DNA of 48,818 nucleotides. Source: a virus. Location of the stretch: positions 1 to 48,818 of the IMG/VR virus record IMGVR_UViG_3300028832_000018; one strand, 5' to 3'. Under the pieces are notes generated by a model. It had not been told where the DNA came from and did no database searches. It was given only the letters and a program-made list of their open reading frames with translations. Both the position numbers and the translations under genes were made by a program. Below are positions 47,559 through 48,818 of this stretch, one piece after another. The stretch's first letter is position 1, and every line of letters begins with the position of its first letter.

Positions 47559-48017
47559 ATGGCAGAAAATAGAAACGATTTTACTCATTATGTATCTGCA
47601 TCAATAGACTTTGGTAAAACAATAAAAGGAGTACTGGATTCAACAGATAAATTATATTATGATAATTATATTGGTGCATTAGCATCAAACCCATATTTTA
47701 CCTATACAGTAAATGTTGGTCCGGTAACTATGCAAAAATACATCATAAATGAGGGTGCAACTATTATCTTCTGGAGTGATGGCTCTAAGACAGTAAGTAA
47801 AAGAGATAAAAACGATAAATTTGATAAAGAATTAGGCTTCTTATTTGCTTATTTCTATAAATTCTTTAAAGGAAGCAAAGCAAGTAGAAAAAGAGTAATA
47901 GATTGCGTTGAATATAAGAATATTAAGACATTTTTATTCGAATTCTATGTAAATCATAGTGGAAAAACTGCTGAACAAGCAAAAAAATACCTTCAAAATT
48001 TAGAGGTTGCAAAATAA
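47559..48017 (+). CDS. hypothetical protein
   Basis: Starts 2 nt after the upstream stop. Contains IIFWSDGSKTVSKRDKNDKFDKELGF, a motif I recall recurring in phage proteins of unknown function. Confidence 0.55.
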   Translation: MAENRNDFTHYVSASIDFGKTIKGVLDSTDKLYYDNYIGALASNPYFTYTVNVGPVTMQKYIINEGATIIFWSDGSKTVSKRDKNDKFDKELGFLFAYFYKFFKGSKASRKRVIDCVEYKNIKTFLFEFYVNHSGKTAEQAKKYLQNLEVAK

Positions 48018-48035
48018 TCAAAAATATGCTATAAT
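48007..48035 (+). promoter_or_regulatory. sigma-A promoter (extended -10) of the RNA operon
   Basis: ttgcaa (48007-48012), 17-nt spacer ending atatgc, tataat (48030-48035). Confidence 0.65.
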
Positions 48036-48046
48036 GTATATAGTGA

Positions 48047-48131
48047 AAAGGTCATACAGCAAACTATTTTGTGGTTAATACCCACGCGCCTTACAATGAA
48101 AACGAACTGAAAATTCGATTATTAGACCTTT
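48047..48131 (+). ncRNA. Y-RNA-like unit A
   Basis: Closing helix aaaggtc (48047-53)/gaccttt (48125-31). AT-ACAGCAAA at 48054-48063. Internal hairpins gtgg-ttaatac-ccac and cgaa-ctgaaaa-ttcg. Confidence 0.5.
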
Positions 48132-48151
48132 GAAATCTTTGAAATAATAGA

Positions 48152-48250
48152 AAGACACATACAGCAAAATAATTTAGTAGTCTAATGGTTAGACATTTGC
48201 TCCACAATCGCAAACAATATTGGTTCGAATCCAATCTAAAAACGTGTCTT
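48152..48250 (+). ncRNA. Y-RNA-like unit B enclosing a normal-order tRNA mimic
   Basis: Closing helix aagacac/gtgtctt. AT-ACAGCAAAA at 48159-48169. Inside are a D-arm gtct-aatggtt-agac, the stem tttgc/gcaaa with a 9-nt loop tccacaatc, a T-arm attgg-ttcgaat-ccaat, and an acceptor whose top has two A.A mismatches. Confidence 0.55.
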
Positions 48251-48271
48251 GATTAATATAGTAATTAAATA

Positions 48272-48390
48272 AATGCCCGTACAGCAAAACTTTTAGCATT
48301 AGGGATGTCGAGGTTGTTGGTTCGAATCCAACTTTTACAGTCTTTTTTGTAAAATGGCTCAACTGGATAGAGCGCGTATAAATGGGCATT
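48272..48390 (+). ncRNA. Y-RNA-like unit C with YrlA-type permuted tRNA mimic
   Basis: Closing helix aatgccc/gggcatt. GT-ACAGCAAAA at 48279-48289. T-arm gttgg-ttcgaat-ccaac (48316-32), then the acceptor-like helix ttttaca/tgtaaaa closed by a loop (48333-54), then a D-arm gctc-aactggata-gagc (48357-73). No anticodon arm. Confidence 0.6.
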
Positions 48391-48397
48391 GTTATAT

Positions 48398-48474
48398 TGG
48401 AAAGTAGTTCAGACGGTTAGAACACTGTCCTGATACGGCAGGAGTCGTAGGTTCAAGTCCTACCTTTCCAACCA
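48398..48474 (+). tRNA. tRNA-Ile (anticodon GAT), CCA encoded
   Basis: Hand-folded: tggaaag/ctttcca, D gttc/gaac, anticodon arm ctgtc-ctgatac-ggcag, T gtagg-ttcaagt-cctac, A-CCA. Confidence 0.8.
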
Positions 48475-48475
48475 C

Positions 48476-48565
48476 GAAGTAATACCCAAGTCTGGTAAAG
48501 GGGGCAGTCTACTAAACTGTTAGGTCGACAACGATGCGTAGGTTCGAATCCTACTTACTTCGCCA
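48476..48565 (+). tRNA. tRNA-Ser, type II, anticodon ACT (unusual A34), CCA encoded
   Basis: gaagtaa/ttacttc, 3-bp D-stem ccc/ggg, anticodon arm gcagt-ctactaa-actgt, 17-nt variable arm, T gtagg-ttcgaat-cctac, discriminator G, CCA. Confidence 0.7.
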
Positions 48566-48572
48566 TTATATG

Positions 48573-48646
48573 GTGTGGTTAGTCTAATGGTAGGACGATT
48601 GCCTGTGAAGCAATTTATGTAAGTTCAATTCTTACACCACACACCA
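48573..48646 (+). tRNA. tRNA-His (anticodon GTG), CCA encoded
   Basis: gtgtggt/accacac, D gtct/ggac, anticodon arm attgc-ctgtgaa-gcaat, T gtaag-ttcaatt-cttac, A-CCA. A G lies at -1. Confidence 0.8.
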
Positions 48647-48651
48647 AATAT

Positions 48652-48726
48652 GCTCTCATCGTCTAGTGGTTAGGACAACAGGTTTTCAACCTGTCGACAT
48701 CAGTTCAAATCTGGTTGGGAGTACCA
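48652..48726 (+). tRNA. tRNA-Glu (anticodon TTC), CCA encoded; spans the contig junction
   Basis: gctctca/tgggagt (two G.U), D-arm tcgtctagtggttaggaca, anticodon arm acagg-ttttcaa-cctgt, T atcag-ttcaaat-ctggt, A-CCA. The 3' 35 nt are duplicated at 1-35. Confidence 0.8.
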
Positions 48727-48818
48727 AATTGTATTTGGATTTAAAATACATTAAAACTTCCAATTTATGCTATCTTTATAGGTAGCATCTAATATATGAG
48801 TTACTAGTTAATGGAAAT
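48692..48818. repeat. Second copy of the 127-bp terminal overlap
   Basis: Identical to 1-127. Confidence 0.95.

What the first reader, a model, noticed from the sequence alone, without database searches (positions are those of the whole stretch)
48007..48818. ORF-free RNA operon of about 1.1 kb crossing the contig junction: 3 Y-like RNAs, 4 tRNAs and 2 tRNA-derived units, from one promoter to two terminators
From promoter 48007-48035 the sequence runs through the junction to terminators at 389-427 and 451-483 with no credible ORF. The tRNAs are packed almost end to end: the Ile CCA ends at 48474 and Ser starts at 48476. All four encode CCA. Co-transcribing tRNAs with tRNA mimics next to a Ro-like gene suggests a functional link, such as tRNA supply, surveillance or decoy activity during infection. 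One possible role is countering host anticodon nucleases. The combination, rather than the tRNAs alone, is what is unusual.
Basis: partly seen in the sequence, partly recalled or inferred. Interest (0 to 1): 0.65.

Follow-up and report, generated by a model that had tools for sequence, protein, structure and literature searches.

The report
Phage Ro-like gene with Y-like RNA array
A temperate phage carries a Ro60-like RNA-binding protein gene next to a 1.2-kb gene-free stretch packed with small structured RNAs and four tRNAs, and the same protein-plus-RNA module recurs in many well-known phages, so it is probably a widespread but barely described phage ribonucleoprotein system.

Summary
The window is a circularly closed 48,691-bp temperate siphovirus; bases 1-127 repeat 48692-48818. 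Between ORF 47559-48017 and the ORF at 534 lie 1,207 nt with no + strand ORF over 39 aa. They hold three Y-like RNAs, four CCA-encoding tRNAs (Ile-GAU, Ser-ACU, His-GUG, Glu-UUC) and two further structured RNAs. A consensus promoter opens the stretch and two terminator-like hairpins close it.

New points:
- A fourth Y-like unit sits upstream of the Ro-like gene.
- All four share a 7-9-bp closing helix followed by ACAGCAA.
- This unit flanks the Ro-like gene, on the same strand, in 45 loci (113 hits versus 1 antisense), including E. coli Felix-O1-like, Listeria A511 and mycobacteriophages.
- The protein models as a Ro60 fold.
- tRNAs are present in only about half of the arrays.
- The two "tRNA-derived units" belong to a second conserved scaffold RNA class.

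Best reading: a phage Ro-like/Y-like RNP module with swappable, often tRNA-mimicking RNA inserts. Binding, co-transcription and the anti-defence role are inferred, not shown. It is a new variant of a known kind (Ro60/YrlA). Rfam has no model for it.

The parts
45942..45970 (+). promoter-like site (TTGACA-17-TAGAAT, TG) upstream of Y0
   Evidence: consensus match only
46020..46123 (+). Y0: fourth Y-like unit. It has closing helix GATACTC/GAGTATC, then AUA, then ACAGCAA. An outer helix joins 45989-45998 with 46127-46136.
   Evidence: (z -3.1). The same two-tier unit lies upstream of the Ro-like gene in L001 and L030.
46137..46174 (+). terminator-like hairpin plus U-run between Y0 and the Ro-like start codon
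46196..47557 (+). Ro60-like RNA-binding protein gene (453 aa): helical ring plus vWA domain with MIDAS DTSGS
   Evidence: Pfam DUF2828/DUF7788/vWA_Ro60. PHROG 850 'RNA-binding protein', E 2e-48. AF2 pLDDT 82. The top 13 Foldseek PDB hits are all Ro60. MIDAS residues are conserved.
47559..48017 (+). ORF of 152 aa with no family match; present between the Ro-like gene and the array in only a subset of relatives
48007..48035 (+). promoter-like site (TTGCAA-17-TATAAT, extended -10), ending 11 nt before Y1
   Evidence: consensus match only
48047..48131 (+). Y1: closing helix AAAGGTC/GACCTTT, then AU, then ACAGCAA. The insert has two small hairpins and no tRNA-like arm.
48152..48250 (+). Y2: closing helix AAGACAC/GTGTCTT, then AU, then ACAGCAA. 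It encloses a whole cloverleaf (48171-48243) with a 5-bp acceptor stem, a 9-nt anticodon loop and no CCA.
   Evidence: 41 bits, tRNA model 3-68; z -2.8
48272..48390 (+). Y3: closing helix AATGCCCG/TGGGCATT, then U, then ACAGCAA. It encloses a T arm, a hairpin and a D arm in the YrlA order.
   Evidence: (RF02553, 28.3 bits, E 8e-4, below gathering)
48398..48474 (+). tRNA-Ile (GAU), CCA encoded
   Evidence: 66 bits
48476..48565 (+). tRNA-Ser with the unusual anticodon ACU, a long variable arm and an encoded CCA
   Evidence: 55.5 bits
48573..48646 (+). tRNA-His (GUG), G-1 encoded, CCA encoded
   Evidence: (71 bits)
48652..48726 (+). tRNA-Glu (UUC), CCA encoded; its 3' part is duplicated at 1-35 by the assembly overlap
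77..177 (+). S1: second scaffold class. P1 is a hairpin at 77-96 (GCUAUC/GGUAGC). P2 is a 13-bp helix joining 97-109 with 146-158. The insert carries a T-arm-like hairpin at 129-145. P3 is a small hairpin at 161-177.
   Evidence: (z -5.4)
180..212 (+). spacer hairpin between S1 and S2, with no U-run
   Evidence: z -3.0
252..426 (+). S2: second scaffold class. P1 is at 253-272. P2 joins 273-286 with 374-387. The insert is 87 nt. CAG follows P2. P3 at 389-415 doubles as the first terminator-like hairpin, with a U-run to 426.
   Evidence: (z -4.5)
451..483 (+). second terminator-like hairpin: 10-bp A+U-rich stem followed by T7
   Evidence: read; the scan did not report it because the stem has only 2 G-C pairs

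Best explanation
This is the RNA half of a phage Ro60-like ribonucleoprotein module.

The phage encodes a ring-shaped Ro60-fold protein (46196-47557). It also encodes four small Y-like RNAs: Y0 upstream of the gene and Y1-Y3 downstream. Each RNA is closed by a 7-9-bp helix made from its own 5' and 3' ends. The 5' strand of that helix is followed after 1-3 nt by the near-invariant single-stranded ACAGCAA, and the 3' strand by G.

Inferred steps:
1. The helix plus ACAGCAA is the handle that the Ro-like protein binds. This would be analogous to the bulged helix and GGUCCGA/GNCGAA motif of Y and YrlA RNAs.
2. The interchangeable insert is the business end. Here the inserts are two hairpins (Y1), a full cloverleaf with a 9-nt anticodon loop (Y2) and a permuted T-arm/hairpin/D-arm module (Y3). 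The insert would dock host tRNA-binding or RNA-decay enzymes onto the Ro-like ring, or divert them from their targets.
3. Y1-Y3, the four tRNAs and the two S-class scaffold RNAs are probably made as one precursor. It would start at the promoter-like site 48007-48035 and be cut apart by host tRNA-processing and other endonucleases. Spacers between units are typically 19-25 nt.
4. The tRNAs are optional passengers that share this expression and processing platform.
5. The likely pay-off is control of host RNA turnover or counter-defence during infection.

Shown: the sequence anatomy, covariation, the strand-specific association with the gene across phyla, and the protein fold. Inferred: RNA-protein binding, co-transcription and processing, host partners and benefit.
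For: Anatomy and chance control in the window:
- Searches give 5 descriptor hits on the + strand and 0 on the - strand. Shuffles give a mean of 0.22.

Association with the gene:
- In 45 loci carrying a homologue of the protein (24-84% identity), 113 units lie within -900/+2300 nt on the gene's strand against 1 on the opposite strand. That is 0.77 against 0.01 per kb; regions further away give 0.10 and 0.03 per kb.
- Of 164 motif occurrences near the gene, 114 have a helix of at least 7 bp. After shuffling the downstream sequence, 24 of 164 do.

Covariation of the closing helix:
- The seven core pairs each show 4-6 pair types. The covariation score is 0.91, against 0.22 shuffled and at most 0.21 slid.

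Same units beside the homologous gene in cultured phages of unrelated hosts:
- E. coli phage mistaenkt, interleaved with tRNAs.
- Listeria phage A511.
- Mycobacterium phage DuncansLeg, whose gene is annotated 'Ro-like RNA binding protein'.

Protein:
- The AF2 model has pLDDT 82.
- The top 13 PDB matches are all Ro60 or Rsr structures over the full length.
- The MIDAS motif is conserved.

tRNA mimicry:
- T-arm motifs (GGTTCRA) occur in 34 of 103 distinct inserts.
- Y3 matches Rfam YrlA below threshold.

Precedents in the literature:
- YrlA RNAs lie next to Ro60 on the same strand in 254 bacteria and 22 phages, and are bound by Rsr (PMC4201824).
- Thermus phage phiLo Ro60 binds two phage Yrl RNAs and host PNPase (PMC12135203).
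- Bas63 gp130, a Ro60-like protein upstream of tRNA genes, counters the Ppl defence (PMC11482910).
Against: - There is no expression, processing or binding data for this phage or any relative.
- The conserved motif (ACAGCAA) is not the GNCGAAN0-1G/GGUCCGA motif of established Y RNAs.
- Y3 falls far below the Rfam YrlA gathering score.
- The promoter and terminators are consensus matches. Promoter-like sites in the region are no more frequent than in shuffles.
- The units used for the covariation count were chosen for having a helix, so the percentage paired is inflated by construction.
- A reverse search (motif first, then look for the gene) was inconclusive. It was capped and dominated by chance matches.
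- The protein matches no Pfam TROVE model and no Ro60 by sequence in the PDB.
Confidence: 0.62

Rival explanations
1. The array is simply a tRNA supplementation island. Under this reading the Y-like and S units are decaying tRNA relics or spacers with no function of their own, and the neighbouring Ro-like gene is coincidental.
For: - Four intact CCA-encoding tRNAs are present.
- GAA and AGU are very common phage codons.
- Many inserts contain tRNA-like arms.
Against: - About half of the related loci have Y-like units but no true tRNA.
- The closing helix and ACAGCAA are conserved with compensatory changes from Bacilli phages to coliphages and mycobacteriophages. Relics would not keep these.
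- His is only 1.2% of codons, and the dominant Ile codon AUA is not read by GAU.
Confidence: 0.08
2. The helix plus ACAGCAA elements are cis-acting signals rather than free RNAs. They would be endonuclease processing or stability punctuation for a polycistronic tRNA/ncRNA transcript, or operator sites through which the Ro-like protein regulates its own mRNA.
For: - Units sit directly after the stop codon (about 48 nt away) or directly before the start codon of the Ro-like gene in many loci.
- Y0 lies between a promoter-like site and a terminator-like hairpin in the leader of the gene.
- Spacers between units are regular, with 19-25 nt in 34 of 47 cases.
Against: - The units have the size and end-to-end stem architecture of free Y RNAs.
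- Homologous YrlA-type units in mycobacteria and their phages are known as discrete Rsr-bound RNAs (PMC4201824).
- Arrays of 3-5 units with very different inserts are hard to explain as punctuation.
Confidence: 0.15
3. The tRNA-like RNAs act on their own, without the Ro-like protein. They would be decoys or substitutes against host tRNA-targeting defence nucleases.
For: - Y2 is a full cloverleaf with an abnormal 9-nt anticodon loop, and Y3 and S1 carry tRNA elbow elements.
- tRNA-Ser carries an unusual ACU anticodon.
- The idea of phage tRNAs evading anticodon nucleases comes from general knowledge and was not tested here.
Against: - Two of the four Y-like units here, and about two thirds of all inserts, have no tRNA-like arm.
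- The invariant part is the handle that tracks the Ro-like gene, not the mimic.
- The host, and whether it has any such nuclease, is unknown.
Confidence: 0.1

Closest known systems
Bacterial and phage YrlA / Y RNAs with Ro60 (Rsr); Rfam RF02553; Chen et al. 2014, PMC4201824
   Same: - Small RNAs of 50-130 nt are encoded within a few hundred bases of a Ro60-fold gene on the same strand, often several per locus.
- The 5' and 3' ends pair, with a conserved motif on the 5' side.
- At least one RNA per locus carries a T arm, a hairpin and a D arm in the YrlA order (Y3 here; the middle unit in mycobacteriophage DuncansLeg).
   Different: - The conserved motif is ACAGCAA, following the helix, not GNCGAAN0-1G.
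- Y3 scores 28 bits against a gathering score of 69.
- Most units carry other inserts: two hairpins, a full cloverleaf or very short loops.
- Arrays are frequently interleaved with true tRNAs.
- The protein is of the DUF2828/PHROG 850 type and is not detected by a TROVE profile.
Thermus phage phiLo Ro60 with Yrl1/Yrl2 (PMC12135203; PDB 9KOP, 9L5Y)
   Same: - A phage-encoded Ro60-fold protein has phage-encoded Y-like RNAs next to the gene.
- It is the best structural match to the model of the window's protein.
   Different: - The phiLo RNAs were picked by a CGAA motif and lie upstream only.
- No tRNAs or second scaffold class are reported there.
- Binding to the protein and to host PNPase is shown there and not here.
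Bas63 (Felix-O1-like coliphage) gp130 (PhageMaP preprint, PMC11482910)
   Same: - A Ro60-like protein lies directly upstream of a run of tRNA genes.
- The authors guessed that some 'tRNAs' are Y RNAs.
- The related coliphage mistaenkt shows exactly the ACAGCAA units between its tRNAs.
   Different: - That work gives a phenotype (counters the Ppl defence) but does not identify the RNAs.
- Orthology of gp130 with the window's protein is inferred from the 120 Escherichia phage hits, not checked directly.
Phage tRNA gene clusters
   Same: Tightly packed tRNAs lie on one strand in an ORF-free stretch.
   Different: Here the tRNAs are a minority of the structured RNAs, and they are dispensable in about half of the related arrays.

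Membership tests
Y RNA / YrlA (Ro60-associated ncRNA) | Encoded close to a Ro60-family gene, on the same strand | tested here: met
   There are 113 units on the gene's strand against 1 antisense within -900/+2300 nt in 45 loci. In the window the units are Y0 at -73 nt, and Y1-Y3 at +490 to +833 nt.
Y RNA / YrlA (Ro60-associated ncRNA) | 5' and 3' ends pair to form the stem that carries the protein-binding site | tested here: met
   The closing helix is 7-9 bp, and every core pair shows compensatory changes. Covariation is 0.91 against 0.22 shuffled. Caveat: the units were selected for having a helix. An unbiased control gives 114/164 against 24/164.
Y RNA / YrlA (Ro60-associated ncRNA) | Conserved Ro-binding motif GGUCCGA / GNCGAAN0-1G in the 5' strand | tested here: not met
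   The invariant motif is AC(A/U)GCAA, placed 1-3 nt after the 5' strand. No CGAA-type motif occurs at that place.
Y RNA / YrlA (Ro60-associated ncRNA) | tRNA-like module (T arm, acceptor-like hairpin, D arm) in at least one RNA of the locus | tested here: met
   Y3 aligns to the YrlA model's T arm, hairpin and D arm and folds that way. Y2 has a differently joined cloverleaf. Y0 and Y1 have none.
Y RNA / YrlA (Ro60-associated ncRNA) | Reaches the Rfam RF02553 gathering score | tested here: not met
   Y3 scores 28.3 bits against 69. The other units give no match.
Y RNA / YrlA (Ro60-associated ncRNA) | Physically bound by the Ro60 protein | not testable with these tools
   Needs RIP, CLIP or EMSA.
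Ro60 / TROVE protein | Helical-repeat ring followed by a vWA domain (Ro60 fold) | tested here: met
   The AF2 model has pLDDT 81.9 and pTM 0.74. Foldseek ranks 1-13 are all Ro60 or Rsr, with E from 6e-8 to 7e-6, about 490 aligned columns and TM about 0.5.
Ro60 / TROVE protein | MIDAS motif DxSxS in the vWA domain | tested here: met
   D277-T278-S279-G280-S281 are invariant or nearly so in 37 homologues.
Ro60 / TROVE protein | Sequence-profile membership (Pfam TROVE, or similarity to a solved Ro60) | tested here: not met
   Pfam gives DUF2828, DUF7788 and a sub-threshold vWA_Ro60 match (24.8 against 27.7 bits) but no TROVE. phmmer against the PDB finds no Ro60.
tRNA | Cloverleaf detected by two independent programs, 7-nt anticodon loop, 3' CCA or discriminator | tested here: met
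   Ile, Ser, His and Glu are found by ARAGORN and by Rfam at 55-71 bits, with CCA encoded. The 'Cys(ACA)' call is not a tRNA: it has a 9-nt loop, a 5-bp acceptor stem and no CCA, and it lies inside Y2.
Single operon (one promoter, terminators at the end) | One transcription start, no internal terminator, and a terminator at the 3' end | tested here: inconclusive
   Consensus scans give a good extended -10 promoter at 48007-48035. No + strand terminator appears before 389. Only weak internal promoter-like sites (9 of 12 matches) occur at 48190 and 127. No transcript data exist.

The most novel reading that the evidence does not exclude
The PHROG-850 Ro-like protein, together with the ACAGCAA-handle RNAs (and perhaps the S-class scaffolds), forms a pan-phage, modular adaptor system. 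One protein ring would be loaded with a changeable set of RNAs. Their inserts each imitate a different part of a tRNA or another host RNA. Each would bait, tether or block a different host tRNA-directed enzyme, such as a defence nuclease, PNPase, or a repair or modification enzyme. On this reading the array is an evolvable RNA-based counter-defence cassette that co-evolves with phage tRNA clusters.
Probability: 0.2. Interest if true: 0.85.

Novelty: new variant of a known kind. Interest (0 to 1): 0.62.

Why it matters
Ro60/Y RNA systems are well studied in animals and a few bacteria. Their role in phages is almost unknown.

The evidence here identifies concrete, alignable RNA partners for a Ro-like protein family present in about 700 sequenced phages. 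These include laboratory workhorses: Felix-O1-like coliphages, Listeria A511 and L-cluster mycobacteriophages. It also shows that the RNAs share one handle (helix plus ACAGCAA) while their inserts vary freely.

This makes an open question directly testable in tractable phage-host pairs: what do phage Ro proteins bind, and why do they sit beside tRNA clusters? It would also explain a reported counter-defence phenotype of a Ro60-like coliphage protein.

The findings add two uncurated RNA classes that genome annotators currently miss or miscall as tRNAs. In this window one of them is called 'tRNA-Cys(ACA)'.

Tried and rejected
1. Covariance model of the Y-like scaffold. MAFFT split the 3' strand across the variable insert, so no usable alignment could be made and no model was built. 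A scripted descriptor with shuffles was used instead.
2. Reverse association test. I scanned IMG/VR for AAAGN5TACAGCAAAA and looked for the gene nearby. Real units turned up in L074, L087, L094, L095 and L117, two of them with the gene adjacent and two in truncated tRNA-array loci. The result is inconclusive.
3. Sequence search of the protein against the PDB. It returned only noise, so fold comparison was needed.
4. Hammerhead ribozyme idea for S2, which contains CUGAUGA. Rejected: there is no GAAA core and no Rfam match at E up to 10.
5. The minimum-free-energy fold of S1/S2 pairs UUUAUAGGUAGC with GGUGCUUAUAAA as a long-range extension. Comparison of 18 homologues favours separate P1 and P3 hairpins instead. 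P1 changes in a compensatory way, for example GCUACC/GGUAGC, CACUAC/GUAGUG and GGCUAC/GUAGCC. P1 and P3 could not be counted formally because MAFFT mis-registers the loops.
6. A suspected second motif, UUGCUCCA, inside inserts. It occurs in only 2 of 103 inserts and was dropped.
7. Two Wolin-lab reviews (PMC10870794, PMC6047535) and the supplementary alignment of PMC4201824 were not held. I therefore could not check whether ACAGCAA in mycobacteriophage YrlAs has been noted before.
8. Codon-usage explanation of the tRNAs. It fits only partly, and the host genome is unknown.
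Full report
**What the window is.** The first 127 bases are identical to the last 127. The contig therefore closes on itself, its real length is 48,691 bp, and the feature is continuous across the "junction". PHROG and Pfam matches identify terminase, portal, major head, tape-measure, integrase, RecT and a replisome organiser. This is a temperate siphovirus. Its G+C content is 26.9%. Close relatives of its Ro-like gene lie in metagenome-assembled genomes labelled uncultured Bacilli, Bacillota and Erysipelotrichaceae. 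That fits the strong Shine-Dalgarno sequences and the extended -10 promoters.

**Checking the observation.**
- The non-coding stretch between the stop of ORF 47559-48017 and the ATG at 534 is 1,207 nt. Its longest + strand ORF is 39 aa. The only ORF of 50 aa or more is a 66-aa antisense frame over Y2/Y3.
- ARAGORN and Rfam agree on four tRNAs: Ile-GAU 48398-48474, Ser-ACU 48476-48565, His-GUG 48573-48646 and Glu-UUC 48652-48726.
- Reading the sequence confirms an encoded CCA after each tRNA and gaps of 1-7 nt between them.
- ARAGORN's fifth call, "tRNA-Cys(ACA)" at 48171-48243, has a 9-nt anticodon loop, a 5-bp acceptor stem and no CCA. It lies inside a longer helix and is the core of Y-like unit 2.
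- The promoter-like site 48007-48035 (TTGCAA-17-TATAAT with TG) ends 11 nt before Y1.
- A terminator-like hairpin at 389-415 with a U-run was reported by the scan.
- A second hairpin at 451-483 is A+U-rich and followed by T7. It is visible in the sequence but below the scan's G-C criterion.
- No + strand terminator-like site lies between these ends. Internal promoter-like sites are weak, at 9 of 12 matches.
- A single transcription unit is therefore plausible but rests on consensus matches alone. Promoter-like sites in the region are no more frequent than in shuffles.

**The Y-like units.**
- Y1 (48047-48131), Y2 (48152-48250) and Y3 (48272-48390) share one design. A closing helix is made by the two ends: AAAGGUC/GACCUUU, AAGACAC/GUGUCUU and AAUGCCCG/UGGGCAUU. 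After 1-2 nt comes ACAGCAA(A), then a variable insert. The 3' strand is followed by G.
- A fourth unit, Y0 (46020-46123, GAUACUC/GAGUAUC plus AUA-ACAGCAA), lies upstream of the Ro-like gene. It sits between a strong promoter-like site (45942-45970) and a terminator-like hairpin (46137-46164).
- A descriptor taken from relatives finds these four units plus one probable chance hit in coding DNA on the + strand. It finds none on the - strand. Block shuffles of the window give a mean of 0.22 and a maximum of 2 on both strands together.
- Predicted folds keep the closing helix. Y2 shows a cloverleaf. Y3 shows a T arm, a hairpin and a D arm.
- Y3 aligns to Rfam YrlA at 28.3 bits (E 8e-4 in a 919-nt search), far below the gathering score of 69.
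- No other Rfam family matches any unit.

**The neighbouring protein.**
- ORF 46196-47557 (453 aa) matches Pfam DUF2828 and DUF7788. It also matches vWA_Ro60 just below threshold, and PHROG 850 "RNA-binding protein" at E 2e-48.
- Sequence search of the PDB finds nothing relevant.
- An AlphaFold2 model built on 37 homologues has pLDDT 81.9 and pTM 0.74. Its 13 best PDB matches are all Ro60: Thermus phage phiLo, Xenopus, human and Deinococcus Rsr. E-values run from 6e-8 to 7e-6, with about 490 aligned columns and TM about 0.5.
- The vWA MIDAS residues DTSGS are conserved.
- The protein therefore has the Ro60 fold, although sequence profiles do not place it in the TROVE family.
- tblastn finds homologues in 699 phage records. 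They include Lak megaphages (42% identity), Campylobacter, Felix-O1-like Escherichia and Salmonella, Vibrio, Listeria, Staphylococcus, Enterococcus and Bacillus phages. They also include mycobacteriophages, where the gene is annotated "Ro-like RNA binding protein".

**Comparative evidence for the RNA family.**
- I fetched 32 IMG/VR loci and 12 genome loci carrying homologues at 24-84% identity, plus one coliphage locus.
- ACAGCAA or ACUGCAA clusters immediately beside the gene on its strand in essentially all of them.
- A scripted search (helix of at least 7 bp, 1-2 nt, AC[AT]GCA[AG], 18-170 nt, 3' strand) gives 113 units within -900/+2300 nt on the gene's strand against 1 on the opposite strand. 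That is 0.77 against 0.01 per kb. Regions further away give 0.10 and 0.03 per kb.
- Without any helix requirement, 114 of 164 motif occurrences near the gene have a helix of at least 7 bp. After shuffling the downstream 185 nt, 24 of 164 do.
- In a fixed-register alignment of 100 distinct units, the seven core pairs each show four to six pair types. The covariation score is 0.91, against 0.22 for shuffles and at most 0.21 for slid partners. Pairing itself is inflated because units were selected for a helix. The diversity of pair types and the strand asymmetry are not.
- Consecutive units are typically 19-25 nt apart, in 34 of 47 spacers. The median unit length is 85 nt.
- T-arm motifs (GGTTCRA) occur in 34 of 103 distinct inserts. 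The rest are short hairpins.

**The family is not confined to this phage group.**
- In E. coli phage mistaenkt (Ounavirinae), the homologous gene is followed by tRNAs interleaved with units. One example reads cagAAGACCAagUACAGCAA...UUGGUCUGg. Another is a YrlA-type unit. Rfam has no family for these units.
- Listeria phage A511 has three such units just upstream of gp57.
- Mycobacterium phage DuncansLeg has three just downstream of gp55, the middle one of YrlA type, followed by a terminator.
- The handle (helix plus ACAGCAA) therefore tracks the Ro-like gene across phages of Bacillota, Proteobacteria, Actinobacteria and a Treponema MAG.

**tRNAs are the variable part.**
- About half of the loci have true tRNAs in or next to the array.
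- Several ARAGORN calls lie inside Y-like units.
- Large phages (L023, L024) and the coliphage have 9-20 tRNAs directly after the units.
- In the window, GAA is 90% of Glu codons and AGU 40% of Ser codons. His is only 1.2% of codons, and the main Ile codon AUA (57%) is not read by GAU. Simple codon supplementation explains the tRNAs only in part, and the host genome is unknown.

**The two units after the junction.**
- S1 (77-177) and S2 (252-415) share a second architecture. A hairpin P1 has a conserved 3' strand (G)GUAG(C/U). A long helix P2 of 11-14 bp encloses a variable insert. After GG or CAG comes a small hairpin P3 (GUGCUU-AUAAA-AAGCAC type).
- About 19 members occur in 13 other loci, usually in the same arrays.
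- Ten of the 11 P2 pairs show compensatory changes. Covariation is 0.92, against 0.25 shuffled.
- P1 and P3 covary by inspection.
- S1's insert holds a T-arm-like hairpin, GCAAG-UUCGAUU-CUUGC. S2's insert does not. In S2 the P3 hairpin is lengthened and followed by a U-run, so it doubles as the first terminator.
- "tRNA-derived" is therefore at best half right. These are members of a distinct scaffold class that is not in Rfam.

**Interpretation.**
The best-supported reading is a phage Ro60-like RNP module. The helix plus ACAGCAA is inferred to be the protein's binding handle, and the inserts are interchangeable effector parts, often tRNA mimics.

This is by analogy with three published cases:
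- Rsr/YrlA and the Rsr-Y RNA-PNPase machine (PMC4201824).
- phiLo Ro60, which binds its own Yrl RNAs and host PNPase (PMC12135203).
- The Ro60-like gp130 of Bas63, which sits upstream of tRNA genes and counters the Ppl defence (PMC11482910).

The authors of the Bas63 work only guessed that some neighbouring "tRNAs" might be Y RNAs. The units found here are explicit candidates.

Co-transcription with tRNAs would give the RNAs access to the host tRNA-processing machinery. Y0, in the leader of the Ro-like gene, suggests possible autoregulation.

Binding, processing, host partners and benefit are all inferred.

Three rivals remain possible but fit the conservation pattern less well:
- tRNA relics.
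- Cis-acting punctuation or operator sites.
- Ro-independent decoys.

**Novelty.**
Y-like RNAs beside Ro60 genes in phages are known in principle. They have been reported in mycobacteriophages, CcrColossus, phage G and phiLo. The Ro-like/tRNA adjacency has also been noted.

Literature searches and Rfam did not show:
- the ACAGCAA handle;
- its universality across PHROG-850 phages;
- the modular arrays;
- the S scaffold class.

I could not read the supplementary alignments of the 2014 paper, so prior notice of the motif in mycobacteriophages cannot be excluded.

I rate this a new variant of a known kind.

Noticed in passing
window 11888-11956 (+): Rfam finds a fifth tRNA-like gene with anticodon CAU (47 bits), between the portal gene and the next ORF. 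ARAGORN misses it, and its T arm is imperfect. It could be tRNA-Met. It could instead be a lysidine-type tRNA-Ile reading AUA, the phage's commonest Ile codon (57%).
   Followed up: partly
window 48476-48565: tRNA-Ser carries anticodon ACU (A34), which is unusual in bacteria, where GCU is normal. Relatives such as L013 carry Ser-GCU and Ser-UGA instead.
   Followed up: no
window 45474-45940: An ORF-free stretch of about 470 nt upstream of Y0 is extremely A+T-rich and full of short TATA-type direct and inverted repeats. It might be an origin, an attachment site or a regulatory region.
   Followed up: no
window 1-127 and 48692-48818: There is an exact 127-bp terminal duplication. It is most simply an assembler k-mer overlap of a circular or concatemeric genome. 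It splits tRNA-Glu and S1 across the contig ends.
   Followed up: yes
related loci, all arrays (e.g. L003 5404-5933): Consecutive Y-like units are separated by a remarkably regular spacer of 19-25 nt (34 of 47 cases). This suggests a measured processing step.
   Followed up: partly
window 30020-30775; L167 739-1671: An SPFH/Band-7 protein gene is present in this phage. A 'band-7-like membrane protein' gene lies about 1.3 kb upstream of the Ro-like gene, next to a tRNA, in mycobacteriophage DuncansLeg. This may be coincidence.
   Followed up: no
window 30777-31442 and 35403-36284: The phage encodes a small metallo-beta-lactamase-fold protein (Lactamase_B_2, just below the cutoff) and a PHROG-388 'nucleotidyltransferase' with no Pfam match. 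Either could in principle act on RNA ends, but nothing links them to the array.
   Followed up: no
window 1324-3288: Shortly downstream of the RNA operon, after three small ORFs, lies a cluster of a GT10-like glycosyltransferase, a methyltransferase-like protein and a GT2 glycosyltransferase. This is unusual cargo for a 48-kb siphovirus.
   Followed up: no
L035 and L036 (contig CALVKK010000001.1): One 109-kb MAG contig carries two copies of the Ro-like locus 36 kb apart. This could be tandem prophages or a concatemer assembly.
   Followed up: no
L007 5830-5975: In one S-class element the sequence CUGAG upstream of P1 can pair with the same CUCAG that forms the start of P2. This gives two mutually exclusive folds.
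   Followed up: no
L010 3877-3951, also L011, L012, L016, L038: In one sub-lineage a genuine CCA-encoding tRNA-Gln(UUG) occupies the position just upstream of the Ro-like start codon, where the window has Y0.
   Followed up: partly
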